A stretch of DNA of 64,000 nt from Octopus sinensis (lineage: Eukaryota), in assembly GCF_006345805.1 (NCBI RefSeq), contig NC_043000.1, positions 107,570,001-107,634,000 on the forward strand, read 5' to 3'. Shown piece by piece: positions 484 to 63,041 of this stretch. Numbering within the stretch: position 1 is the first letter of the stretch; the number at the start of each line of letters is the position of its first letter. The notes below the pieces were generated by a model, which ran no database searches, was not told where the DNA came from, and saw nothing but the letters and a program-made list of their open reading frames with translations. A program made the position numbers and the translations under genes.

Positions 484-932
484 GATTTGTAAGACAGCTC
501 AAGACACCAAGTCAACCACATATTCACAAACACAGAGAACTCTCTTAACTCTAGAAGTATTGTAGCTTTGTTAGCAAGCGGCTTGAATTCTCTTAAGAAG
601 AACTTAAAAAAAACTCAAAGAAGAAACAAATCATACATACATACATACATACATACATACATACATACATACATACATACATACATACATACATGATGAT
701 TGTCAGCTCGATTTGTAAGACAGCTCAAGACACCAAGTCAACCACATATTCACAAACACAGAGAACTCTCTTAACTCTAGAAGTCTTGTAGCTTTGTTAG
801 CAAGCGGCTTGAATTCTCTTAAGAAGAACTTAAAAAAAACTCAAAGAAGAAACAAATCATACATACATACATACATACATACATACATACATACATACAT
901 ACATACATACATACATGATGATTGTCAGCTCG
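484..932 (+). repeat. Tandem duplication of a ~225 bp unit ending in (ATAC)n
   Basis: Copies at 484-709 and 710-932 differ by one visible substitution (gtattgt/gtcttgt) and by microsatellite length. Confidence 0.95.
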
Positions 933-1823
933 TAGACGAGTATAACAATCTTTGACAAATTATTTTATCCGAGATGTTGAAAGAAAATGGCTGTTAGCAA
1001 TGAACGTGCTGAAATCTTAAATCAATAACAGCTTGTAAAGGACCGTATAAACTCTCACCTAGAACACCAAGTAGTTTAGAAACAATTAAGATCGCAATGG
1101 GTTGAGTATTATTTCAGAATTTTCTTCTGCTAGACAATGGGTTTCTCACTCACAGTTGTTGGATGGTCGTGAACTTTATTGATTTTACACTTTGACAGGT
1201 TTTGTTTATCATCCTGCAAAGTATCCAACGAAACCACCCTCATCCCTTATCGAGCTCACTTTGTAGTATTTAGTAACCGACGGCCCGATTATGCGAAAGG
1301 TTGCATTGGATTATATGTTACCAGTATCACTAAGAATGACCTGATATTTAAAGCTAAATTTCACCATACAGTCAGTCGCCCGCTGACACTCGTTGATGCT
1401 ACATCGAAGAGGCCAGGGAACAGAAGAAAGAAGACATGCACTCAACACCAGAGCTGGAACATTTGCCTCGGTAGAGGAGTAGGGGCCGAAACCGGACGTG
1501 GTCCCTCCTGATGATGTCTTGAGCTAACTGGATCCTATAAAGGAGCTGTTGTGGTAGCAGACCACGAAACACGGTTGAAATTCCTCATATATATGTGTTT
1601 CCATTTTCATATTTCACTTTTATTTCTCAAGGAATTAACTATGATGTTTTATCTCTTAGTTAGTTATATAGATGATGTGCGTTGTATTTTAACTTTTCAA
1701 ACCGTTGTGGAATTCAGAAATTAAATTATGAAACATCTAGTAAATAATGTCATTTTTACTACATATGCATGCATACATACATACATACATACATACATAC
1801 ATACATACATACACATACATACA

Positions 1824-1855
<32 letters not shown>

Positions 1856-1857
<2 letters not shown>

Positions 1858-2595
1858 ACACCTTCAAAAGTAATTACGCTATGAATACTAATAAAAATAT
1901 TTGGTTAATAATTCCTTACGGGAGACAAATTAAATCTAATCTCCCACTGCTGTTTCGTCAAGCTATTGCTAGGAATTTTCCAAACAATTCTAGATATTAC
2001 TCTATAATTAATTCACATAAGGTTAGGATAGGTTTTTCAAACACAAAAAATCTCTTGCAAATTATATCTTCTCATAATAACAAACTGTTAAATATTAATA
2101 CATTTACTAATACTAACATTAATTTAGCTAATACCATCCAGCCCTCTAGAAATATTAATAACAAGGTTATTGTATCTGAAGTCAATTCCAATAGAATTAA
2201 ATTTATGTCAAGTAACTCTAAGATTAAAAATTATATATACCAGTGTATAATCAGTACTCGTAATAAAGTACGATTTTACATTGGAAGCACATCGTTAGAA
2301 TTATCTAAAATAAATTTCTATCCATTACTCAACATTTAGGGATAGAAATAAACGGAATAGTACCGGTCTCAGCAAACTGATTTGGGATTTAAAAGACCAC
2401 AATGAACAATTTCATTTAGAATGGTTGATCCTCTCAATTTCGATACCATATGACAAAGGCAAGAAATTCTGTCTTCTCTGCAATTCTGAGCTATTTTTCA
2501 TTATTTTTTCTAAAAATACTCTAGTAAACACAGTTATAGAATGAGCATACAGATGTAAGCATTGGCAAAAACATACATTTAGTGCATATAAGTAG
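1856..2595 (+). pseudogene. Penelope-like element (Naiad-type), 5'-truncated RT thumb/linker plus GIY-YIG endonuclease
   Basis: NIWLIIPYG, KVRIGFSNTKNLLQIISSHNNKLL, YIYQC...FYIGST; after a frameshift near 2310 HYSTFR...STGLSKLIWDLKD...FCLLCNSE...CKH. In-frame TGA at 2542. Confidence 0.85.
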
Positions 2596-2796
2596 TCTCT
2601 ATCATTATATATAATTTAAACTTTAATTTCCTTTATATTTGACATTCACTATTAATATCCTTACTCTTTCTGTTAGCTACTTATGACGTTATATCATTTA
2701 ACGTTTTTTTAAACAATATTAATAGCGTTCTGTCTGTCGCTATACAAATCCATCATTTTTTGCTAAAATGTCTTATTGACGAGTTTCGTTTTTTTC

Positions 2797-2882
2797 ACTT
2801 TCCTGAGGAGAAGATTGCATTGTTTATACCATTTATTCTTTTGAATAGTATCAGTGGAATTTTCGAAACATGTGTTGAAAGT
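2797..2882 (+). ncRNA. Minimal type-I hammerhead ribozyme in the Penelope 3' region
   Basis: Stem I actttc/gaaagt (6 bp); CTGAGGA 2803-2809; stem II gaagattgcattg/cagtggaattttc; GAAAC 2865-2869; loop ATGT; GTT triplet 2874-2876. Confidence 0.8.
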
Positions 2883-2942
2883 AAAAATATTTGTTTACAC
2901 CTGCGTTAACTCCATTTTTTATTCATATATATATACATATAT

Positions 2943-2986
<44 letters not shown>

Positions 2987-5374
2987 ATATATATATGAAG
3001 CTATAGTGGTCTATGGAAATTATATACGTTTTTATTATTTTTTTGCAATTTACTTAATCTTTGGTATTTTATTGTTATTTTAATTTTAATATTTCTATTA
3101 CATATAATTTTCTAGATGGTGTAATTTAATTGTTCATTTTGAATTGATAAAAGGTGTTTTTTTTTCTAATTTATATATATATATATATATTATATTGTGT
3201 GAAATTTGACTTAGTATTTCTAAATTGAATTTTTTCCCTGTATGTTAGGATTAATATTCCCTTAAATAATAATTATATATATATACGCATACAGGGTGGA
3301 GGTACACGAGCACATACACACACACATACACATTCACATATACATAAACATATGTATGTACAAACACGTAGCTTATTGTGAATTAGAGAAAATACTGAAT
3401 ACATAATGTAGAGTATAATTATATTTATTCCGCTGATACTATTTGCAGTAACTTCAAGTTTCCCGATTATTCGATCAATCATACGTAAAGGAACACATGC
3501 CTTGAGTACTGAAGTATTAATTGTTGGTTAACAGTAACAACCACCACCACAACAACGACTGCTATTTCTGAAGCTATAAGGGCCTATAGAAATTGTGTTG
3601 CCTGTCTTCAATCTTGTTATCTATGAGTTAGCTGAATGTAGAATCTTGAATTCTAGGTGAATATTGAAAAATTCAGACTTCCTCCATAATTTAGATCTTT
3701 CGTTTAGCAAAAGAAAAAAAGTGAACAGCAATAATAAAGCCTACCTTGACATCAGAAATATGGGATCTGTATTATCGATTAACAGGAAATCTTCTCCACA
3801 ACTCTAGTCTATTTAATCAAAAGCCAATATGCTTGTGAGAAAAACTAATAAACTATTTAGTCACACGGGAAATAAAATGAATGATTAAATGTGTTTTCTG
3901 ATTAGCTGTTGCTAATCAGCAGTTCGTATAAATTGGAGAGTAGCATAATTGATCTCAACGTTGAGGGAATGAGGTTATGTTGTGTTGATGTCTTCCTCAA
4001 GGTTATTAATGATACCTGGGAATGAAGGCATTTTCAGTTTTTCGACAGCATCTCCATCGCTCTTCGAAATTTCCTAGAACGAGGCAAATGTTTATCATAC
4101 AAAACATTATTAATAAATTATAAACTACTATTATCTAGACACAGTAGTGATGTGTTATTTTGCCTTTCAGAAGCAAATCAATTAGGTATCAACTGGCAGA
4201 TGTCTCTGCGTTTGTTATCTTTTATTTTGATAATAACACAATACTGTTCTCAAGAGAATGTTTCAAACAGAAGTTGGGTAATTGTAATACCTCCCAGCAT
4301 CAATTCTATGCAAACTTTGAGTTCTTGGTAAAAGATATGCATTTTTCTAATGATGCAATAGAATCAATGTCGAACGTGAAAACAGGAGAAACTATATCAC
4401 ACTTTTTATTATCAGCTATCGAAACACAATGCCTTATTGTTTTTCTTATATATTTAACAAATTAAGCTTTAAAATTATATAATAATTCAGATAAGTCACA
4501 TTTGATGTTGTAATTGTATTAACCGATTTTTTTATACTGTTTTGTAATATTCCATTAGGTCACGCCTCAATTTGAATTCAAATCCCTCAGAAGTCAAATT
4601 TGCCTCTCACCTTTACCAGGGGTCGGTGACATGTAAATCTGCAAAGCAGAGAGGAGATGAGTGAAGGATGGAATCATTATCCATAGAAACCTTGAATCTG
4701 TGTTAGAAATTATTATTATTTTGTTTGAGTAGAATTGGCAGTGGTTCTTAGTTGTGCTTAATGTATTTTTTAAGTTTATTTCCATTTAATTTTATCAATT
4801 TTAGCAACATACTCCAAATAAACGTTAAAATATTATGGTTTCTATTGATTTTCATCTTTAATTGGTCTTTCATTGTCGGTATCTTGAGACAATATACGTT
4901 GTAGCGAAACCTATCTATAATAAAGCAAAAAATAGAGAAACATAACAACAAGAATACGCTGTCAGATATAGATTGGAAGTATCGATTGAATTAAAACGTA
5001 TTGTAGGAAATAAACCACTAGAAAATTACAAAGAACATTCGTAGTTTGCGCTATTTATGGACGACAATAAGATAGATTTTGTGCCAATATACAACATCTT
5101 ATTCTGATTACGTATCTTGAAAATTAATCGATAAACTATAAGAGTCAGTGTCTTCACTTTGCAAAATTAGCAATCATCTTAGTATATATTTCTCCTGTTT
5201 ACCACTTTTAATTTGTTCAAATGCATTGCTATAGAAATGTAAGCTAGGTACGTATACATAAGGCGGTGGTTATCTTTTTGCATGAAGCGAAAAGCAACGA
5301 GCTTTTTATACAATATCCTTCTTTTTAACAAAGTTTGAGAAGAACTGACATTATTAAACCTCACTGGACCTTAT

Positions 5375-5800
5375 CCAATATGAAATAGTTAAAATGAATG
5401 ACAACTGAGTTATCAACAAAGAGTTTAAAGAGGTGGAGGATAATTTAAAACACGGATATCCGGGGGTGGGGGGTGGATTTAAACTGGATCTTCAGAAGAT
5501 AAAACTAAGATTTTAAACAATTTAATGAAGAAAATAATTTACGTTGGAAGTTTATCCAAATGAGATGTAGATCATTGTCATTGATATTCTTCAAATTCCA
5601 AGCTTGATGTTACTACTGAGTACCAAGATGTCAGTAGTTCATCGGGTGATTTGGCGAAGATGTTAATTGTTGGAAGTCATGAGTGTGTATAGACATTAAC
5701 AAATTGTTTCAGTTGAATAATTTCTATTACTTTGGTAGTGATTGATAAACTGAAATTAAAGAAGATAGGTGGGTATCAAGACCGAAGAATGTTTGGTGGT
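5375..5800 (-). pseudogene. Highly decayed LINE reverse transcriptase fragment
   Basis: Minus strand reads SLSITTKVIEII (like ISLLS..KVFE) and LFKLFVDNS (like LFADD), with many stops and frameshifts. Confidence 0.35.
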
Positions 5801-6082
5801 CACCGGTGATGACAGAGAAAAGCGTGCGGGAAATAAACCGATATAACTGATTGGTGAAGCCAGTTGGTTACTTCTAATATTGTCCAAATACAATAAGAGA
5901 CTTTGGACAATTGGCGCGTCATGTGTTCTTAATATTCTTAATATTTCGTGACTTGGTTTGACCGCAGTATGATAAAGCCAGATCTCACTTGGACGTCATG
6001 AAAAAAGCATACACACATGCATGCATATGTATCTATGTATACATGTGTGTGTATGAGTGCATCTATGAATGTATCTGTGCGC

Positions 6083-6270
<188 letters not shown>

Positions 6271-6719
6271 TATGGGGTGTGTATGCATATTCCTATGATA
6301 CCAATGCAATTGTCATGGAATCGACAGGTACATAGAAGAAAAAAGTGAGGAAGAAAAAAGCGATTCCACCTATCGGACTTTCCTAATCGTTAACGCGTTT
6401 TTTCAGAAACGTTGGATATAAAGAGCTTGGAATAATAAGAGGCTACTAATTCTGCGTGCATTAGGTTAGGTTTATCCAGAATGATCATTCTAGGAATGGA
6501 AATTATAAGATGTATATTTACAACGTGTGAGCTAATAAAGTATTTCATTTTCTATTACAGATGAAACATCGATTTACGCAAGTGCAGTAAATACGGAAAC
6601 ATTTACATTACTTGCATTTTTACGCTCCCCTAATAAAGCACAACAAGAATTATTTACATTGTTACTGCATGGATATTGTATCAAGATATGACCTGACACA
6701 ATGTTAAATTTACGTTGTT

Positions 6720-13110: not shown

Positions 13111-13285
13111 GTCAATGTGCCATGATACACGAAGAAGCTACGCCTGATGACAATGATATCCTGAACAGATTTCAGAATATCAGAAACGTTTATATGATTG
13201 AGAAAAATGGGAGGAAATATTGAAAGTAAAACGAAAATGTGTGTTTTAAGGTTTTATCCCCTTTTTGTTTCAATATTCTCCTTAA

Positions 13286-27340: not shown

Positions 27341-29338
27341 CAGTTTTAAAGTACATTGGTTCAAAATCCTGTTCATTGCAGCAACCTATAAGGCAAGAGA
27401 TCTGTCTTTTAAACCCGAAGAAGAATTTTCAGAGCTGTTGTGCAATTCTGACTTGAATTTTTCAAAATGAAATTTCATAATTATTAGACTGGGCGTAAAA
27501 ACGAGAATTTGCAATACTACATGAACTAGCAACTCTTCTTTATCCATTCTTTACACATATTTATATAAATCTATATTTTCACTTTTAACATTAATATGAA
27601 ATAAATACCACTCAAATAGCCCATTAATGCATAGTGATTCCCCAAATATGATAACTAGTACATTAATTACATAAGTTAATTACATAGATATAAAATCATT
27701 TCTAAATAGATAAACAGCGTAGAAATCCGTGAAGAATGTAATTGAAAAATATCATGTAACAATATTTAGTGTTTATTTACTGGATTAGGATGAAGGAGTA
27801 GTGCTTATGAACATCGCAAGCACCCCTACCACAGACAATGGTGAGGTTGATACCACTGATATTTCATTTAAACTATTACAAATCAACACCGGCGAGAAAA
27901 ACATGAGCAAGGAGGAATTTCCAGGGCGTCTATGTCCCGAAACAAGGATAGAGAGTGGTGATTCTTGCAGCTCTTAAGCGGGCAAGCAAAACAAGAGAGA
28001 GAGAGAGAGAGAGGAGAGAGAGGAGAGAGAGGACGGAGAGGAGGAGAGAGAGAGGGGAGAGAGAGAGAGAGAGAGAGAGAGAAGATAGAGATAGATAGAG
28101 AGAGAGAAACGAGTGGGTCAAGTATTCTTGAATGCAGGTCGAATTTTATCCAACCGGTTTCAACTCGGTAACTGTCTTGCATAATTTCTGCACAAGGCAG
28201 GGGTGGAGCAGAAATTATAGAAGATATTTGCGGAGAGTGCTGTTCACTGGGATCGAATTCAAGGCCATGTTATTACGAAGCAAACGTCTAAACCATTTAG
28301 TCTTGTCTGCGCCACAATAGTCGTGTAATTTTATTCACAAGTACACTGATCGATATTCAGAAATACCAAGACTTGCATATTCCCTTAAATGCAAAATTGA
28401 TGTTGGATTAAATGAACGTTAATTAGAGCATTCATTATGGTATATTGTTCTCTTGTTAATTTAATTACTGTAATTATAAATACCATTAGCTAGTGTTGAA
28501 CGGGCTGGAATATACTCAGAGATTCTCAGAGAACTTCCTATTTCCTTTCTGTTTTTCTGAAAAGTCGGTTTAAATTATTTATCCCTCTCTGGAACAAGAT
28601 ACCTTATGTTAAATGTCGACAGTGCAAATGCAATTAGTGAATCTCTATTTATTTCGGCCGGTCGTTTATTTAAAGTTTGGCAAAGACGTTAAAAATTTCA
28701 CTAAAATTTTACCGGTATGTTTATTAATTGTCTTCAGAAGCCAACAGGAAAACTATGAAAGTTAAAAGTTGTGAAAATAGATGAACGGAATCATATGAAA
28801 GAATATTATCGAACGGCAATGATCAAAGATAGTTAAAGACTTCAGAAGAAGGTTTAACAACTTGGCAATATTTTAATGGAAAAAATTGGCGCCAACTGAA
28901 CTTGTACAGAAACGATTATGTTCACCAAAATGTCTTGTCATTAGAATAACACTTTTATGTATTTTATGATGTTATATAATAACATGATCTTATCAAAGTC
29001 GACACTAATCTGGTTGTAAATTGTAAATACAAGAGCGAATGAAATTAATAAATAATATTGTTAAATTTGGTTATTTAGGCTCCCGATTATTTGTTAAGGT
29101 TTAAAACTCTAATCAATTTCGGAGTTGTATTTGCCTGGTAACTTGCAGTGGAACTATGTGAGTGATCAGGTGGTGGATAGTGTATCGAAAAGGTTGTCTC
29201 CAAGTAATAAATGATTGATTGAAGCTAAAAGTTTGTGAAAGTTAAAAGTATAGTTTTATATTTAAGAGATGAGGAATTATGTACATTATTTACATTATTT
29301 ACATTTGACGGATATTTGTCCACATCTTGTTTGTTGTT

Positions 29339-29384
29339 AACACAACGTTTCGGCTGATAATACCCCCAGCCTTCATCAGGTGTC
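29339..29384 (-). ncRNA. Minimal hammerhead ribozyme, left arm
   Basis: Minus strand: gacac CTGATGA a ggctg-ggggtattat-cagcc GAAACGTT gtgtt. Stem I gacac/gtgtt, 5-bp stem II, palindromic AACGTT in place of stem III. Confidence 0.75.
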
Positions 29385-29451
29385 TTGGGGAAATTTCGAA
29401 ACTGGGTTCTTATTGCTAAGGTATTTTTCTATGTTGTTGCTATTATTATTA

Positions 29452-29501
<50 letters not shown>

Positions 29502-29660
29502 GTATTAGTAGTATTAGTAGTTGTAGTAGTATTAGTAGTATTCAGGTCACTGCCTGTAATCGAGCTCGGAATCTTAGGATTAGTAGCACGCGCTCTTAAC
29601 GCCATATGCGCACGGGCTACTAACCCCAAGATTCCAAGTTCGATTCCAGGCAGTGACCTG

Positions 29661-29709
<49 letters not shown>

Positions 29710-29756
29710 TCTAAAAATACCTTAGAAATGAGAACCCAGGTTCGAAATTTCCCCAA

Positions 29757-29802
29757 GATACCTGAAGAAGACCGGAGGGTATATCAGCCGAAACGTTATG
29801 TT
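29757..29802 (+). ncRNA. Degenerate minimal hammerhead ribozyme, right arm
   Basis: gatac CTGAAGA a gaccg...cagcc GAAACGTT atgtt; core intact, mismatches in stems I and II. Confidence 0.6.
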
Positions 29803-30823
29803 AGCAACAAACAAGATGAGGACAAATACCTGCCAAATGTAAATAATGGAAATAAAGTTAAAAGTGTTTGAATGGCTAAAAATATGTCCACCACGATGTA
29901 ATTGTTCTTATAAACAAATTTACCTTCATATGATACCACACTTCTGACAGAAATATTGATAGTCGGTTTCCTGCTTTTGAATTGCATTGAGTTTATATAG
30001 AGAACAATCTGCATTTGCCGAATCACCGCATTAAGATGTAAATTTAATCTGTGTCAATACAATTTCTATTTCTTACAAAAGGATAGCTGAGAAAATGATG
30101 AGACCCAAAAGGCAACATATACGTATGACATATATAGTGTTCTTACAGTCAGCTCAATTCTATGATTAGAATTTAGAATAAATATATTATTATTCTTTTT
30201 TCTCCTAGGGAATTCTTATAACACTTAAAGCAATATATAATAAATTTTCTCATTTGTGTATAGCTTGCTTCAAATAAATCACCGGTGTTTACAGGAGGGA
30301 TTTATCCATTTTATGCGGCAGTTAAGATGAACCTCTGTATCTTGGGGTTTTGATCAAATTATGATAATGAACATTTTTCAAAAAAGTAGAAACACTGATC
30401 ACCGGAGAAAAGCGAACAGGAAGCTTACATTGTCAGGTACAAGAATTCATTGACAAACATAATTCAACCATCTTCAGAGACCATTAATAATTTCCAATTT
30501 CAATATTTGATTTGTGTGTGAATTTCCTAAATCATTACGGAATCACACTATTTGAATTTTATTACTCCGTGTAATACGTCCAGTGAAAACCGGCCACGTT
30601 AAGTAATCTTGTTAAAAGTGATACTTGGGAAATGATTTCAACATCGCAACCTATGGAAGCAATCGTCAGTTATGTAGCCCCACTGCCTTAAGTAACAATC
30701 TATAATTAGCGATCATTACAGAGTATGTATCGTTGCAGGTGTACACTATAGTGATAGCTAATTATAGGTTAGTTACTGAGTCATTTGAAAATTAAATGTC
30801 TGACTATAAATATAACGTATATA

Positions 30824-33875: not shown

Positions 33876-35480
33876 CTAATGAGAACCTTGTCCCTGTACA
33901 TTTTTGATTAATTTCTCAATATCAGGTGCATAATTTGTAACTTTTAGCTTCACGCAATCTTCCGAATGTTGAATTGTCAGACAACTTCTTTGTGGACTCA
34001 AAACAGATTTCATATATGAAAAAATTTGTTCGCATGTATATCTTAAGCCAAAAGGCTGAAAGCAGAGCATATGAGAGTTTCTCCAAAGAATTGAATCTTT
34101 AAATCAATGACATTCAGCAATTTCAGATGGCAACAGACTTCTCCAAGCAGCTTCTTCTAAGAGTTTTTCGTAATTCTACAAATTTTGTTTTCCACAATTC
34201 TGAAGTTGTTAATTCAATCATTTCCATTTCAAAACTATCGATGTGCATCCACACAAAAAGTGATAGATCAGATGGGTTCGTTTTCAAAAGAAAATATAGG
34301 AGCGTAAGTTTCGAAATCTTTACCTCGTTGGAAAATTCTTCTTTCAACGTTGCAATATATTTTTGAAGTTCATTTTTATTAACATTAAATCAATTTGAAT
34401 AAGCTTTTATTTTTGGAAAGTATTTGTAAGTGTTGCTAAGTACATCACGTCAAAAAATATCTAATTTTAACAAAGCATGATACAAATCGATTCAAAACAT
34501 TACCCAGACTAAGCCAATGGACATTACTGTATAATGGGAGGTCTGCATATTTGCTGTCCAATTTTTGCAGAGATGACTTAAATTGTCTGTGAGTCGGTGA
34601 ACAGCGAAACACTATGAAGTTAACTATTTTAAAAACAGTCTCCATGACGAAATTTGTGATGAAATTTTTGCAACTAAATTTTCCTGATGTATAATGCAAT
34701 TAAAACTCATTATATGGCATCCAATATGATTTTCAAGAAGCTTAAATTCCTTTCCAACCATTGCACGTGCACCATCAGTAGTAATACAAAATATTTTATT
34801 TATATTAATGGCTTGATTTTCGAAATAATTTACAAATGCAGTCAGAATGTCCTGTCCTGTAGTTGTATTGTTAAGAGGAATCAAGCCACGTAGTTCTTCA
34901 TAAATACGATCATTGTCACAGTATCTTGCAACAATTGCTAGGCGCGCCATGTCATTCTCGTCAGTACTTTCATCGATAGCGTCACTGAATGCAGCAGCTT
35001 TTTGTTTTATTGTGTTTTCAGCTATATCAGTTATACTTCTCTCAGTTGATCTAGCAGAAGCTGATGTTTCTTGAATTCGAGACAGTATTGTTTCAGAGTT
35101 TGGTAAATCACTGAACAAAATTTTTGCACTTCTCAGAAAAACGTTTTTGATAAATTCTACATCTATAATAAGTCTACCTTTCTCAGCTATACATTGAGAA
35201 ATTGTGTAACTACATTCTTTGTTTTTATTTTTGGTTCCAAGCATTTGAACAAAAACAGAAGTGCTTTTTTTGTAACTAGAAATAGCCCTTATAAAGGCTT
35301 CACTTTTCTCATCAGAATTTTTAAATATATTCTGCTGTCTAGTTTGATAGTGACAGATTCACAGCAAAATGCACACACAGCACGATAATTTTGTTTTACA
35401 AATCCATACTCAGTTCTCCAGAAATCTTGAAGGGAACGAATGCCAAGTTTTTGTCTTTTGATATTTATCTTGGGGCACCG
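33876..35480 (-). pseudogene. hAT transposase (SPIN/GTF2IRD2/EPM2AIP1-like), near full length, decayed
   Basis: N-terminal AVCAFCCESV; IDESTD; TTDGARAMVG; CIIHQENL; VHWLSLGNVLNRF; YTCEQIFSYMK...IEKLIKNVQGQGSH*. Candidate TIR cagacgttggcaacc at 33250. Confidence 0.9.
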
Positions 35481-41669: not shown

Positions 41670-41990
41670 ACTGGGACAAGAACGTGAAACATTTAGAAGA
41701 CGACACAAAAAAAAAACACGGACGGGACTTTCGAAGCCCTCAGTCATCAGTCAAGAACCGGATCATCTTCGCAATTTCGGCTGATTAATCTTGAGATTGC
41801 TCCGATCTGGGCAGCCCCCAAGGGAAATCTAAGCCAAGCGCATTAGATTCCTTGGAAGAAAGCCTCGAAAGTATACAACACAGGGACGGAAAACGGACGA
41901 TGTTACACGAATAAAAATACAAAAATACGCAAAAACAATAATGATAGCACGAATAAGAATACAAAATACGTAAAAACAATAATGCAATTT
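41670..41990. repeat. Unclassified interspersed element embedded in (TA)n arrays
   Basis: Complex ~320 bp island between TA tracts; atgcaatttatgcatagtttgaataat is repeated at about 41511, 41982 and 42271. Confidence 0.45.
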
Positions 41991-54275: not shown

Positions 54276-55341
54276 ATGACAAAAAAGGACCATTGCTTAC
54301 TTTTCTTGCATGAGTTCAAGCTCGGGCACAATGGCTCCCAAACTGCTGCCAATATCAACAGAGCATGGTGAGAGGGCTCCACAAATGATCACAGTACGAA
54401 GGTGGTTTCAGAACTTCCGTAGTGGTGATGAGAGCCTTGAAGATGATGAAGGTAGAAGACAGTCATGCAGTCTTGACAATGAACAATTGAAAGCAATTGT
54501 TGAACAAAATCCACGTCAAAATGTCAGAGAAGTGTTTCAGGAGCTTCTTGGTGTCGGTATTGCAACGGTCTCACACAATCTGCAGAAGATTGGTAAGGTG
54601 AAAAAGCTCGATAAATAGGTACTGCATGAGCTCAATGAAAATCAAAAAGTTCGGCGTTTGAAGTGTGCTTGATTCTCCCTCTGCGAAACACTAATGATGT
54701 TCTTCTTGACCGAATAGTCACTTGTGACGAAAAGTGGGTCCTTTATGATAACCGTAAGCAATTATGCCAACGGCTTGATCGTAATGAGTTCCCTAAATAT
54801 TTCCCAAAGCCAAAATTGGAAGAGCAAAAGATTATGGTGACTCTCTGGTGACTGTAGTTGGTGTTGTCCATTCCAGCTTTCTAGAAGCCAATCAGAGCAT
54901 TACAGAAGAGGTTTACTGCAATCAGCTCACTGAAATGCATGCTCACTTGCAAAAAATGAGACCTGCATTGGCGAATCGGCGTGACAATTCTACTCCATGA
55001 TAATGTAAAGCCACATGTTGCAAGAATGACGCTGCAGAAGACTTGGGATACGAGACTTTACCACATCCTCCAAATTCTTCTTATCTGTCACTCACTGATT
55101 ACCCTTTTTAAAGCATTTAAACACGTTTTTAAGTGATGAAACTTTCAGGTCCAAACCAGGGGTGGAATCAGCTTTCAATAAGTTTTTATTAACGAGACAT
55201 AAATAATCTCATTGATCGATGCCAGAGATGCATAGATGTTCACAGCTCATACTTTGACTAATAAAAACATTCCTATTGTTAAGTTTTCTAGCATAAAATT
55301 ATGTTTCTGAACTTGACCATTATTTTCAGAACAACCTAATA
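54276..55341 (+). pseudogene. mariner transposase, full-length but decayed, with right TIR
   Basis: HEFKLGHN, VRRWFQNFRSGDESLED, RIVTCDEKWVLYDN, LLHDN.KPH, LPHPPNSSYLSLTDY; stop 55259-55261; TIR ccattattttcagaacaacctaa plus TA. Left TIR not found. Confidence 0.92.
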
Positions 55342-55932: not shown

Positions 55933-56112
55933 GTGGAGATGCGGAGCTTAGTGATTAGGGTGCTGGAGTTATTATCGTAAGATTGTGGTTTCGATTCCTG
56001 AACTGGGCGACGCGCTGTGTTCTTGAGTACAACACATCCTTTCAATGGGATCGAGTCTACTCAGCTGACGAAAATGAGTAAATCCTAAAACGGACCTGCG
56101 TCCAGTGCAGGT
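55933..56112 (+). mobile_element. Family-C SINE, degenerate
   Basis: Aligns with 37936-38110 (atcgtaagattgtggtttcgattcctg). Confidence 0.75.
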
Positions 56113-57056
56113 GAGAAATTTGTGAGAAGGTAACTAACTCGTGCGTGACCATCAACAATCCAGTGACAAGACCATAGCAAGACGACTAAGAATGGAAACG
56201 GATCCAGTGGATGCTCAAGATATTTTACATGCCTTACCTTGCTCCCTGCCCTCCATAAAGCAATGTTATAGCCTTCTTCGCCTCCGTGGAAACACCAAGG
56301 TTTCTTCTGTAGAGTCTGTCGGATCCATGTATATCTTTCACCAGTTTCTAAGTGTATGTACCTTATGTAACATTGCCCATGGTTACGTGCCATTATTCCT
56401 TTCTCTTGCAATTCCAGAATATCCAAACCGAAAAATAGAGCAAAATGAAAACATTCAGACTTACCGTGACAAACGTATATGTTTCTTTCAGGTTTTCACA
56501 TAAAGGCAGCCTTGCTGCATGGCGGGTAAAACTGAAAGTTTTACATTGGTCACAAGAAAATTTCTCTAATATTCTCAGCATTGCAGGTTTTTATATCAAC
56601 AAAAATAAAAATAATTACAAAGTAAATCATAAAAACAAAATAAAGATCGTTTTTAGAGGATCGACTGGAGAAATTTTTTTTTTTATTATTTCGAAGTGTC
56701 ATTAGCCATTCATAACAAATTTTAAAGATATCCAGTCACCCAAAGTACTAAAACCAGAAGTCTAGAAATAATTGCAAAGAGAAATCCCAATAATTATCGA
56801 AAAAAGCATCTACTTCTAATTGTAGTTCGAAAGAAAATTAAAGGGAAAGATAATTATAAGACAAGATGGAGCGATGAAAAAAAAAAAACTAAGAAACAAG
56901 ATACTCCAATCTTTACATAAAAATTAAAAAGAAAAGTCACAAATGTAAGTACCATCGACAAATTCTAACCAGTACACACACAGACACACACACAGACATA
57001 TATATATGCATACATACATATATGTATATATATATATAATATATATATATATAATA

Positions 57057-59348: not shown

Positions 59349-61640
59349 ATTTTCTTTTATTCGCCTTGTGATGACCCTTATCATAGACGGGAATATCACA
59401 AGGGCAGACAAATTGTATGGAGATTTATACAAAGAAAGGGGAAAAAGAAATGGAAAAGTTGGTAAAATGATATAATTAAACATTGTATACACAGTATGTG
59501 ATTACATGAATGATGCAGTCCTGATACAGGAGAAACTCCAGCTAGGGACAATCAAGGAATCTCACTGATCGAGGATTACTCTGACCCTCAAAACCACGAG
59601 TTGTCTTTCATTTTCTCCAGTCTAGAAGCGCATACTTAGAGGAGGACTAGTCATTCTAACCACTATTGTTACAGACATCCATCCTTTCACAAATTTACTG
59701 GGAGGTAGCACTTCCTTCTCCACCCTCGTTTTTTTTCTAAGTGGACGTTAAAGCTCTATGACAGCTTGACCGAAGATGAACACGTCTTTTCTCAATCCTT
59801 TCGGCCTCATCCACCACATAACCTCTTTTGCCATAACCACAAGACAGAGGACACTATTTGACCTGCCTTGTTAAAGGTAGATGGTGGGGCGATCCTCACG
59901 ATGGATTAGTTGGATTCCCTCAACACGATAACAGCTGTTCGACATAACTCTATAAATCAGTAATATTCGGATACTACACGAGTGCTTGCAGAACGGTTTC
60001 GTCGCTCTTCGCGTATGTCGGTCAGTCCTGTTTCACTGCGCTTACGTGCCAGCAGAGTTTATCTCGAAATGGCAGTGCTCCTCAATAACGCTGCTAGGCC
60101 AGAGATTTTTCTTATCCACCTCTAGATTTCTATATATTGCCACGATAGAACTTTCACTGACTGTTTTGCCTCATTGGAAGCGAGCGTCTGACGGCACTCC
60201 AGACGGTACTCCCTTAGAGCAGTGCCGACTACCTCGATTTCGGAGGTGTCCGACACTATTAGGTTGGAGTCGTCTGTGTAAGCCGACACGAACCTTCCGC
60301 ATCCTAGATCATGTGGAATGCCCCTCGAAACATCTAGCTTCTACAGCAATGGCTCGAGAGCGAGTACATACAGAAAAGGCGATAGTGGGCATCCTTGACA
60401 GACCGAACGAGAGATGCTAAACGATTATGATAAGTAGCCATTTACTTTGACCACCGAATAGATGTCGCTATATATTGCAGCGATGTATCCTCTGAAAACG
60501 GGATCGAAACCCGCTGCCGAGAAAACAGCTTCTGAATATTGGTTGTTGACCCTATCAAAAACTTTCGACTGGTCCAAATTGATCAGGGCCCCACTCATGC
60601 CAGGTTTCTTACCCACAATCTCTATGCTGTAGCGCATGAGGTGGGGGTCGTCATGGATAGTTCTGTATCGGATAGCGCATGTCTGCGCGCCACTAACCAA
60701 CTTATCGACGACAAGCACCAACCTCTTGGTTAAAACCTTGGCCACTATCTTATAATCTGCATTCAGCAGAGATATAGGCCTAAAATTATCAATTTTGTCC
60801 CCTTTGTTCGGATCTTTCCTCAACAGCACCACCACTCCACGGCTCACAAAATTGGGAATTCTCCCGTTCTGCTATCAGTTGTGGTAAACGTCTGCTAAGA
60901 GACAACCGAACAAGTCTGGCATATGAAAATAAAGCTCGAAGGGCAGACCGTCCTGCCCCGGAGACTTCTCTCTTGCGCAGGCCATCATCGCATCCTGTAT
61001 ATCTTCGGTTGTTATCGGCATTTCGCAGAACTCCGCATCGCTGGCTGAGAGTCGCGTCTTGCCACTGAGATAGGAGGTGAAATCTACCATTGTCACAGAA
61101 CCACGGCGCGCCCCATACAGTTAGGAGAAATACCGCTGAAATTCTGCACACATCTGCTTCGACTCAGTTATTATGCACCCATCCCATCACAGCTTGCCAA
61201 AGACCGAATTGTTGCTTTGTTTCCACGAAGCGCCTCTGCCTCCCGGGCCCATCGAACGGCTTTCGTTCACTCCCGCTTCAGTGCACGCGCCCTTGCTCTG
61301 ACAACGCAACCTTCGTGCTTGGCATTGAAGAATTGATCAAGGGCCAATCTTGCAATCAGCACGTCGGTCGCTATGCCTTCCTAAGCTCCTCTTCTAGCTT
61401 CCTAACTAGGTCTCCCTCTATCCTAGATTCCTCTAACGCTATTTCTTTGCTAAAACCTATCGCCTCTACTCTAATAGCCCTTTTCAGGGCTATCCACCAA
61501 CGGCTGTTAACTGTTGCGCCGACCAACTTTCAATGGACTAACTTTCTATCCCGGTCACTGAAAGCTTGGTGCACCGGGAAGGCGTGTTCAGCTTTCAGTA
61601 TCTCGGGCCTTGTCTATGGATCCTATCTGTGTCGACCGTA
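59349..61640 (-). pseudogene. Tx1/L1-clade LINE ORF2, decayed and internally deleted
   Basis: KSPGQDGLPFELY; GVVVLLRK...NFRPISLLNADYKIVAKVL; ALINLDQSKVFDRV; AATAAA near the 3' end. Confidence 0.9.
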
Positions 61641-61949: not shown

Positions 61950-63041
61950 GAAGCTTCATTCTATCATCAAGGAAAGCAAAAAATTTGCTATTGATCTCGT
62001 GCAGGATACCCAAACTGAACAACCCGAGGGAAGTACGGCAACTATTGTTGCAAAGAAGGTGAAAATGATGGCAATGAAAAAAGCGCACGAGCAATTGGCT
62101 GATAGGTGGAGGAGAAACCTCTGCACGGCAAATATGTGACCCGCAGCAAACAAGCTGATGTTGACCAGAAGCAAACCCATCAGTGGCTGCGGAGCTCAGG
62201 CTAAAAGCAGAGAGCGAAGGTTTCATCCTGGCTGCTCAAGACCAAAGCCTATTAACCCGGAACTACCAGGCCAATGTGATGAAAAATGGAGCAGACCCAA
62301 AATGCCGATTCTGCAACGACATGATTGAAACAGTGGACCACCTGATCTCTGGATGTAAAGTCTTAGCACCAGTGGAGTATAAATTAAGACATGACAGAGT
62401 TGGCCAATATCTCCACTGGCTAATAAGTCGGCATTACAATATCAAAACTGCCGACAAGTGGTATAATCACCACCCTGAGGCTGTAACTGAAGGAAAAATG
62501 TAACCATTCTGTGGGACTTTCCAGTACATACAGACCGAACCATCAAGCCAATAAACCAGATATTGTTGTGAAAGACCAAAACAATAAAGTTTGCTTATTG
62601 ATCGACATGAGCATCCCCTGTGATCATAATATCTCAGCGAAAGAGTTTGACAAGCTCAGAAAATATAAAGACCTACTCATTGAAATTGAGAAAATGTGGC
62701 ATCTCAAGGCGGTTACAATACCAGTGATCGTAGGAGCACTAGGAATGATCAAGAAGGGAACCGAAAATTATATGAGAATGATCCCTGGCTTACCATCCCT
62801 GCAAGAAGTGCAAAAGATTGTCTTAACTGGTACATCACACATATTGAGAAGAGCATTGTCGATGTGAGAACTGTTGCTGCTCATGTATTTTAATTTAACT
62901 TTAAAAAAAAAAAAAAAAAAATGAACGAACTACTGAGTTTGGTTTAATGGCCTACCAATATACACTATGAGTTTCTTTGCCCTAGGAGTCGGGAAGACAC
63001 TCGGCAAGAAATGGAAGAAAATTTGAAAGAAGAAAAAAAAA

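What the first reader, a model, noticed from the sequence alone, without database searches (positions are those of the whole stretch)
29252..29848. tRNA-headed element fused to a hammerhead ribozyme, arranged as a head-to-head palindrome
Seen: each arm reads outward as a tRNA-like head (ggg-CTACTAA-ccc arm, GTTCGATTCC B box), an (AAT)n spacer, about 50 nt, a minimal HHR on the same strand, and a tail. Known: the Schistosoma Sm-alpha repeat is a precedent for a tRNA-related element with an HHR, whereas ordinary SINEs borrow LINE tails. Inference: a Pol III-transcribed, self-cleaving SINE mobilised by Penelope machinery, which I do not recall being characterised in cephalopods. Read-through RNA would fold into a long hairpin.
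Basis: partly seen in the sequence, partly recalled or inferred. Interest (0 to 1): 0.85.

Follow-up and report, generated by a model that had tools for sequence, protein, structure and literature searches.

The report
Penelope retrotransposon with tRNA-like promoter head
The palindrome is two short end-pieces of a protein-coding Penelope retrotransposon inserted back to back, and the unusual part is that this retrotransposon carries a tRNA-like segment just ahead of its start codon, which likely acts as its promoter and would make it a self-encoding element that behaves like a SINE.

Summary
The "SINE" label does not. Each arm is the pseudo-LTR (pLTR) of an autonomous Penelope/Poseidon-type retrotransposon. 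The hammerhead region encodes the first ~54 codons of its RT–endonuclease ORF. The tRNA-like head sits 30 nt after that ORF's stop codon in 25 of 29 ORF-anchored loci. The palindrome is ordinary Penelope architecture: head-to-head in 31 of 58 loci and never tail-to-tail, a ~35-nt tail on exactly one arm in 36 of 42 pairs, and a ≥9-bp target duplication in 26 of 42 (12 bp here). What is new is the head. It is 47/74 identical to the genome's tRNA-Arg(ACG), with A and B boxes. 22 of 29 short copies begin at its first base (8.6% expected), as do 4 of the 10 ORF-start copies that reach it. The ORF majority sequence has no T4 run, the Pol III stop signal, in 2.5 kb (P 0.01–0.22 by null). Pol III transcription and self-cleavage are untested. 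No such Penelope element turned up in ten literature searches; Repbase and Dfam could not be checked.

The parts
29238..29249 (+). Left copy of the 12-bp target-site duplication
   Evidence: Exact repeat at 29854-29865; >=9-bp duplications flank 26 of 42 head-to-head pairs versus 2.4% of shuffled pairings
29250..29284 (-). Penelope 'tail' (~35 nt), present on this arm only
   Evidence: 3' ends are bimodal at body positions ~138-157 and ~179-182; exactly one tail in 36 of 42 pairs
29252..29413 (-). First 54 codons of the element's RT-endonuclease ORF (start codon mutated to ATA here), running through ribozyme and tail
   Evidence: Open; 45/54 identical to the N-terminus of the 390-aa frame of L187
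29340..29383 (-). Minimal type-I hammerhead with intact core and stems; predicted cut 3' of 29344
   Evidence: CTGATGA 29373-29379 and GAAACGTT 29344-29351; stems I and II form in the MFE fold; activity untested
29433..29541 (-). (AAT)n / (ACT)n spacer of the left arm
   Evidence: Sequence; variable length, often interrupted by later insertions in other copies
29542..29611 (-). tRNA-derived head of the left arm; A box has a 6-nt deletion, B box mutated
   Evidence: family majority head 47/74 identical to tRNA-Arg(ACG)
29610..29661 (+). 5'-truncated tRNA-derived head of the right arm (starts at about position 25; B box 29638-29647; no A box)
29662..29708 (+). (AAT)n spacer of the right arm
   Evidence: Sequence
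29728..29853 (+). First 42 codons of the ORF from its ATG; ends at the tail-less 3' boundary
   Evidence: Open; 3' end at body position 147
29758..29801 (+). Minimal hammerhead, CTGAAGA core variant, stems I and II broken; predicted inactive
29854..29865 (+). Right copy of the 12-bp target-site duplication

Best explanation
The feature is one head-to-head insertion of two pseudo-LTRs from an autonomous Penelope/Poseidon-type retrotransposon whose pLTR contains a tRNA-derived head, and that head likely works as an internal RNA polymerase III promoter that sets the 5' end of the RNAs that get copied. Shown: the full element runs head - (AAT)n - ATG - hammerhead - tail - RT - GIY-YIG-type endonuclease - stop - 29 nt - head - (AAT)n - hammerhead - tail. 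Also shown: the insertions carry Penelope hallmarks, and copy 5' ends pile up at the head's first base. Inferred: RNA starts at the head. The element's protein nicks AT-rich DNA and begins reverse transcription at either edge of the tail, as shown in vitro for an Anolis Poseidon element. Starting from the 5' copy of the tail, or from a short head-to-tail RNA, gives a ~270-bp SINE-like solo pLTR ending at the transcript start. A second cDNA joined in the opposite orientation gives the palindrome with one tail and a target duplication. The template must be uncleaved RNA, because cutting would separate the tail from the head. The window copy itself is probably a dead product.
For: Head follows the ORF stop in 25 of 29 endonuclease-anchored loci, and body in 26 of 29. 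Body continues into the RT ORF in L187, L191, L203 and others. Closest proteins carry RVT_1, PF28514 and PF26215, including an Anolis protein at 42%. Head-to-head 31, tail-to-tail 0 of 58 loci; one tail in 36 of 42 pairs (p 1.4e-6); TSD >=9 bp in 26 of 42. 5' ends: 22 of 29 body-anchored arms at -20..+15 of tRNA +1 versus 8.6% expected from the truncation rate inside the ORF, and 14 of 19 solo copies at -5..+11. Of 37 ORF-start-anchored copies, 10 reach the head: 4 start at -14..+3, 3 inside it, 3 are partial tandems. Both boxes match in 45 of 92 decayed heads; identity to tRNA-Arg is 18/22 in the boxes versus 29/52 outside, p 0.038. No T4 run in head or body or in the 2505-nt ORF majority sequence, versus 50 in 9.8 kb of Poseidon-like ORFs and 43 in 11.8 kb of same-genome Neptune-type ORFs.
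Against: No transcript evidence: only assembled contigs of uncertain RNA status were available. A -8.7 kcal/mol hairpin overlaps the head's 5' edge and could stop reverse transcriptase there without any promoter; palindromes at pLTR 5' ends occur in rotifer Penelopes. A TATAA lies ~34 nt upstream of the head in ORF-linked copies (output) and could serve Pol II. The T4 absence is modest: P 0.01 (base shuffle), 0.035 (synonymous shuffle), 0.12 and 0.22 (Markov), 0.06 against same-genome RTE ORFs. G4 runs are also absent (expected 1.0), and the nearest foreign homologue is equally Phe-poor. A majority sequence was compared with single-copy controls; real copies have 0.33-0.44 T4 per kb. Pfam GIY-YIG did not score on the endonuclease fragment tested. 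Loci were the best matches to each query, not random draws. Only 6 tRNA isotypes were compared.
Confidence: 0.68

Rival explanations
1. Same retrotransposon, but the head is a passenger: an old tRNA or SINE fragment caught in the pLTR. The element is transcribed by Pol II like Drosophila Penelope, and 5' ends cluster because reverse transcriptase stalls or switches template at the hairpin on the head's edge.
For: Hairpin of -8.7 kcal/mol at -14..+10; TATAA upstream; D. virilis Penelope has a LINE-like internal Inr/DPE promoter; rotifer pLTRs begin with palindromes; T4 depletion is weak under Markov nulls.
Against: 14 of 19 solo copies start at -5..+11 with host DNA upstream. The hairpin's 5' half is an inverted copy of the head's first bases, so it reads as a relic of an earlier junction at the same start site (inference). 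The boxes are better kept than the rest of the tRNA. No T4 in the whole unit.
Confidence: 0.24
2. One reading: the short unit is an independent non-autonomous SINE lineage that self-cleaves and borrows Penelope proteins, like Schistosoma Sm-alpha.
For: Short copies far outnumber long ones: 1 of 29 body-anchored arms reaches the ORF; 4454 first-look candidates for the body versus 311-325 for the ORF's 5' part. Heads keep both boxes in 45 of 92 copies, so short copies could seed further copies.
Against: Every part of the unit is in the autonomous element in the same order. Non-CpG variants of the body occur in both short and ORF-linked copies. Copies are dispersed, not in tandem arrays. Cleavage would cut the head from the tail where copying is thought to start.
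Confidence: 0.07
3. The palindrome is an assembly artefact or a chance pairing of two unrelated insertions.
For: Inverted repeats can be misassembled (general knowledge).
Against: The arms differ at 23 of 151 aligned positions, one 12-bp duplication flanks the pair, and the same layout recurs in 31 of 58 loci.
Confidence: 0.01

Closest known systems
Penelope/Poseidon-clade Penelope-like elements (Anolis PAc; Adineta Pen2a; D. virilis Penelope)
   Same: Single RT-endonuclease ORF whose first codons lie in the pLTR; minimal hammerhead there; optional 30-40-nt tail at one end; inverted 5'-truncated copy head-to-head; 8-13-bp target duplications (papers; here).
   Different: None of the passages read reports a tRNA-derived A/B-box segment in a pLTR; described promoters are Inr/DPE or TATA-like.
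TRIMp3 elements (Cassandra, Helenus, Ajax; Kojima 2024, PMC10886601)
   Same: Small-RNA-derived Pol III promoter inside a terminal repeat of a retroelement.
   Different: Those are non-autonomous LTR elements with PBS, PPT and 4-5-bp TSDs, and the paper states their autonomous partners must use Pol II. Here the head is in the autonomous, protein-coding element.
Schistosoma Sm-alpha / Sj-alpha SINE-like repeats
   Same: Pol III-type promoter followed by a type-I hammerhead (review passages).
   Different: Non-coding, often tandem, freed from multimers by cleavage. Here the ribozyme lies inside the coding start of an RT ORF, and copies are dispersed singles or inverted pairs.
Non-LTR retrozymes and non-autonomous PLEs (e.g. 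MRC1)
   Same: Short hammerhead-bearing or pLTR-forming units linked to Penelope machinery.
   Different: Retrozymes are tandem arrays with a ribozyme in each unit; the 2026 preprint has 0 occurrences of 'tRNA'.
Octopus tRNA SINEs OK, OR1, OR2 (Ohshima and Okada 1994)
   Same: tRNA-derived repeats of octopus; a tRNA-Arg origin of OR1/OR2 is recalled, not read.
   Different: Paper not held. OR2 is listed as a CORE-SINE, which does not fit a body that is a Penelope ORF start. Identity with OK or OR1 could not be tested.

Membership tests
Penelope/Poseidon PLE | One ORF with RT and C-terminal GIY-YIG endonuclease | tested here: met
   Majority frame open for 791 codons from tail to stop, with RT motifs at 456 and 490 and endonuclease motifs at 684-696; RVT_1 E 3e-10; 120 listed homologues share PF28514/PF26215. 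Pfam GIY-YIG did not score on the fragment tested.
Penelope/Poseidon PLE | pLTR overlapping the ORF start and holding a minimal hammerhead | tested here: met
   the 57%-identical foreign homologue P0001 aligns through the same ribozyme-coded peptide
Penelope/Poseidon PLE | [quoted passage not shown] | tested here: met
   Bimodal 3' ends; one tail in 36 of 42 pairs
Penelope/Poseidon PLE | Inverted 5'-truncated copy, partial tandems, short TSD | tested here: met
   31 head-to-head and 0 tail-to-tail of 58; TSD >=9 bp in 26 of 42; partial tandems L192, L278, L279
Penelope/Poseidon PLE | Placement in the Penelope/Poseidon clade by an RT tree | not tested
   Best-hit and motif evidence only; no tree built
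tRNA-derived SINE | tRNA-derived head with A and B boxes | tested here: met
   47/74 to tRNA-Arg(ACG), best of 33 genomic tRNAs of 6 isotypes; both boxes in 45 of 92 copies; damaged in both window arms
tRNA-derived SINE | Non-autonomous element distinct from its partner apart from a shared 3' end | tested here: not met
   The whole unit, head included, is the pLTR of the autonomous element
tRNA-derived SINE | Own lineage of short copies | tested here: inconclusive
   No variant confined to short copies among 108 bodies at >=12% minor frequency; low resolution, biased sample
tRNA-derived SINE | Transcription by RNA polymerase III | not testable with these tools
   Only contigs of uncertain RNA status, without strand or ends
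Minimal type-I hammerhead (Cervera and de la Pena 2014) | CUGANGA and GAAA cores, extra nucleotide before G10.1-C11.1, palindromic CG in place of stem III, 4-5-bp stem I | tested here: met
   Met in the family majority and the left arm; stems broken in the right arm; 34 of 108 copies keep the core, 20 keep core and stems. No Rfam hit.
Minimal type-I hammerhead (Cervera and de la Pena 2014) | Self-cleavage, as dimer or protein-assisted | not testable with these tools
   Needs an assay; related motifs cleave weakly or only with the PLE protein
Sm-alpha / non-LTR retrozyme | Tandem non-coding units, each with a hammerhead | tested here: not met
   Dispersed; a second full direct body copy only in L023 among 58 loci; the body is coding
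TRIMp3 | Two direct LTRs with PBS/PPT and 4-5-bp TSD, no ORF | tested here: not met
   Inverted arms, 9-14-bp TSDs and an RT-endonuclease ORF

The most novel reading that the evidence does not exclude
This is an autonomous, protein-coding retrotransposon transcribed end to end by RNA polymerase III: it captured a tRNA promoter into its pLTR, purged T4 terminators from a 2.5-kb ORF, is translated from an uncapped RNA, and produces its own SINE-like progeny by the thousand. It would be a LINE and a SINE in one element.
Probability: 0.3. Interest if true: 0.88.

Novelty: new variant of a known kind. Interest (0 to 1): 0.62.

Why it matters
The current rule is that autonomous retrotransposons use Pol II and only non-coding SINEs or TRIMs use Pol III promoters (stated in PMC10886601). 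A Penelope element with a tRNA-derived head ahead of its ATG, copies that begin at that head, and an ORF free of Pol III stop signals makes that rule directly testable, including how an uncapped RNA would be translated. It also suggests a route for SINE birth in which the promoter is captured by the autonomous element first. For annotation, thousands of 'tRNA-SINE' calls in this genome are really solo Penelope pLTRs. About half of the sampled copies are inverted pairs, so read-through transcripts would form long double-stranded RNA, a possible editing or small-RNA substrate (inference; not tested).

Tried and rejected
Rfam and ARAGORN (relaxed threshold) gave no hammerhead or tRNA call. Pfam GIY-YIG search of the genome returned mostly Neptune-type families; none of 30 short or 20 extended loci matched the body, and their hammerheads differ, so they were rejected as partners. 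The real partner came from sequence upstream of the head in L039, L048, L050, L058, L059. A search for a head-less Poseidon family as an in-genome control failed: all 30 loci returned were this family. Expression: no RNA holder listed. Contigs of 4 runs from 4 coded organisms cover head, body and ORF but give no strand, ends or level, and RNA status is a guess; this is not used as evidence. Covariation in the ribozyme was not attempted: copies are ~92% identical decaying descendants and the stretch is also coding. TSDs were clear in only 3 of 19 solo copies in a narrow search window; unexplained. Three look-ups of earlier scan findings were empty. Two papers were not held. Literature searches listed no tRNA-headed Penelope element; most hits were seen only as listings. 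Repbase, Dfam, subscription journals and supplements (including the curated library of PMC13282606) were not seen and may already hold this family.

Full report
Observation. The window (G000:C4, 2.72-Gb genome) holds two arms pointing away from each other between 29250 and 29853. Each reads outward as a tRNA-like head, an AAT-type spacer, about 50 nt, a minimal hammerhead and a 3' part. The bodies are 128/151 identical. A 12-bp direct repeat flanks the pair at 29238-29249 and 29854-29865. The left arm has ~35 nt more at its 3' end than the right. Rfam and ARAGORN call nothing. The left ribozyme has both cores and forms stems I and II (-14.8 kcal/mol, z -1.08); the right one has broken stems. 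Neither arm has an intact A box.

Family. The unit is dispersed and abundant: 4454 first-look candidates for the body and 989 for the head, of which 40 were scored and 30 cut out each time. These are not copy numbers, and the loci are best matches rather than random draws.

The partner is the element itself. Five head-anchored loci carry a shared sequence directly upstream of the head that translates like an endonuclease C-terminus. Searching with it gave 2424 candidates. In 29 other loci an RT-endonuclease ORF ends, and the head follows in 25 and the body in 26; the head starts 30 nt after the stop. At the other end, the body is the start of that ORF: L187 reads open for 390 aa from an ATG 19 nt into the body, through ribozyme and tail, into the RT N-terminus. 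The window's left arm translates to 54 residues, 45 identical to it; the right arm gives 42 open codons from the ATG. A majority of 63 fragments is open for 791 codons from tail to stop. Its relatives are 120 listed proteins with PF28514 and PF26215, the best unnamed at 57% and an Anolis protein at 38-42%. Copies are about 92% identical to the majority (65 alignments, 85-97%), so the family looks old and mostly dead.

The palindrome is standard Penelope architecture. Among 58 body- or head-anchored loci, 31 are head-to-head and 0 tail-to-tail. Among 42 head-to-head pairs found in 88 loci, 36 have the tail on exactly one arm (p 1.4e-6) and 26 have a duplication of >=9 bp (2.4% in shuffled pairings). 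3' ends fall at two sites ~35-40 nt apart. This matches the inverted 5'-truncated copy and optional 30-40-nt tail described for PLEs (PMC8557442, passages; PMC3846280, passages). It also matches the two internal reverse-transcription start sites mapped for Anolis PAc, where uncleaved RNA is the main template and the ribozyme cuts only with protein (PMC11167929, parts 1-2 of 4). The ribozyme fits the minimal consensus of PMC4209133 (parts 1-2 of 4); 34 of 108 copies keep the core and 20 keep core and stems.

The head. The 74-nt majority head aligns without internal gaps to the genome's tRNA-Arg(ACG) at 47/74 (z 8.9), the best of 33 tRNA sequences of 6 isotypes; the other isotypes were not in hand. 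It does not fold as a tRNA. Identity is 18/22 in the A and B boxes and 29/52 elsewhere (p 0.038; boxes are conserved in all tRNAs, so this is weak). Of 92 heads, 65 match the A box, 62 the B box and 45 both.

5' ends mark the head's first base. Of 29 body-anchored arms, 22 start at -20..+15, 6 start in the spacer and 1 reaches the ORF. Inside the ORF, copies end at about 1 per 400 nt, which predicts 8.6% for such a window. Of 29 head-anchored arms, 20 start there, 3 inside the head and 6 upstream. Of 19 solo copies, 14 start at -5..+11. Among 37 copies anchored on the ORF start (31 newly fetched, 6 held), 10 reach the head: 4 start at -14..+3, 3 at +28..+31 and 3 are partial tandems. PLE transcripts are known to start in the pLTR (PMC6765202, passages), in D. 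virilis from a LINE-like internal promoter (PMC2377424, passages). The simplest reading is that the RNA starts at the head. The rival is a reverse-transcriptase stop at the -8.7 kcal/mol hairpin that overlaps it.

Pol III stop signals. Head and body have no T4 run, and neither has the 2505-nt ATG-to-stop majority sequence. Expected counts were 4.4 (base shuffle, P 0.01), 2.7 (synonymous shuffle, P 0.035), 3.2 (Neptune codon usage, P 0.03), 2.2 and 1.6 (Markov, P 0.12, 0.22), and 5.0 for homologous proteins in this codon usage (P 0.015). Controls: 50 runs in 9831 nt of 8 Poseidon-like ORFs, 43 in 11757 nt of 7 same-genome Neptune-type ORFs, 2 in 1824 nt of 2 RTE-type ORFs. Real copies hold 0.33 and, in an independent set, 0.44 per kb. 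Against: G4 runs are absent too (expected 1.0), the nearest homologue is equally Phe-poor (only 4 of 120 are as low), and no head-less sister family was found for an in-genome control. This is a hint, not a result.

Mechanism. Shown: anatomy, coding overlap, tail, inversion, duplication, 5' pile-up. Inferred: Pol III starts at the head; the protein starts cDNA at a tail edge on uncleaved RNA; short cDNAs give solo pLTRs; a second, opposite cDNA gives the palindrome. In the window the two ribozymes are on opposite strands, so a read-through RNA would carry one of them inside a 604-nt hairpin (-328 kcal/mol), where it could not fold. Whether the window copy is transcribed is unknown.

Comparison. 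It is a Penelope/Poseidon-type PLE by every feature tested; no tree was built. It is not a SINE in the strict sense, though its short copies look and may behave like one; no variant marks them as a separate lineage. The nearest concepts are TRIMp3 elements (PMC10886601, passages), Sm-alpha (review passages only; primary paper not read) and retrozymes (10.64898/2026.07.22.740005, part 1 of 5 and term counts; PMC8969392, passages). Octopus OR2 is listed as a CORE-SINE (PMC4758252, passages); SINEBase passages added nothing; the 1994 octopus SINE paper was not held. A 2026 octopus repeat annotation lists Penelope and SINE families without describing such a head in the text seen (PMC13282606, part 1 of 3 and passages). 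Ten searches listed no tRNA-headed PLE. Repbase, Dfam and supplements were not seen. The clade names Poseidon, Neptune and RTE are assigned from recalled motifs.

Verdict. Real feature, ordinary palindrome, unusual element: a new variant of Penelope with a tRNA-derived segment in the promoter position. Interest 0.62. A wholly Pol III-transcribed autonomous retrotransposon is not excluded (about 0.3) and would merit 0.88.

Noticed in passing
L094 (G000:C1:207473000-207482000), 584-6560: Apparently intact Neptune-type PLE: a 479-aa frame overlapping a 781-aa RT-GIY-YIG frame, with the same hammerhead at 584 and 6519; several 781-aa copies in the genome suggest recent activity.
   Followed up: partly
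G000:C2:3121910-3157865: Tandem array holding 89 of the 100 listed tRNA-Arg(ACG) pattern matches, mostly ~206 bp apart.
   Followed up: no
L006, L014, L022, L040, L060: The (AAT)n spacer often holds later insertions of other repeats, some RTE-like by recalled motifs.
   Followed up: no
L142-L170: 5' truncation points inside the ORF cluster at -533..-555 (6 of 29) and -400..-424 (5 of 29) relative to the head; cause unknown.
   Followed up: no
solo copies among L002-L060: Solo pLTRs show a >=9-bp duplication in only 3 of 19 cases, against 26 of 42 for inverted pairs; solos may integrate differently.
   Followed up: partly
window 28756-28769: 14-bp exact match to 29236-29249, which includes the target duplication sequence.
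   Followed up: no
window 1725-2339 (+): 204-codon open frame resembling the C-terminal part of another PLE by recalled motifs; no Pfam hit.
   Followed up: partly
window 34624-35358 (-), 54280-54618 (+), 60425-60871 (-), 62165-62867 (+): Transposon fragments: weak DUF4371, weak Mos1-type HTH, RVT_1, weak zf-RVT.
   Followed up: partly
window 13144-13186 (+), 56065-56118 (+), 41729-41750 (-): Other CTGANGA...GAAA pattern matches; such loose matches are expected by chance.
   Followed up: no
L176-L179: Four ~99% identical copies of one insertion with its flanks, three on small contigs; likely duplication or redundant assembly.
   Followed up: no
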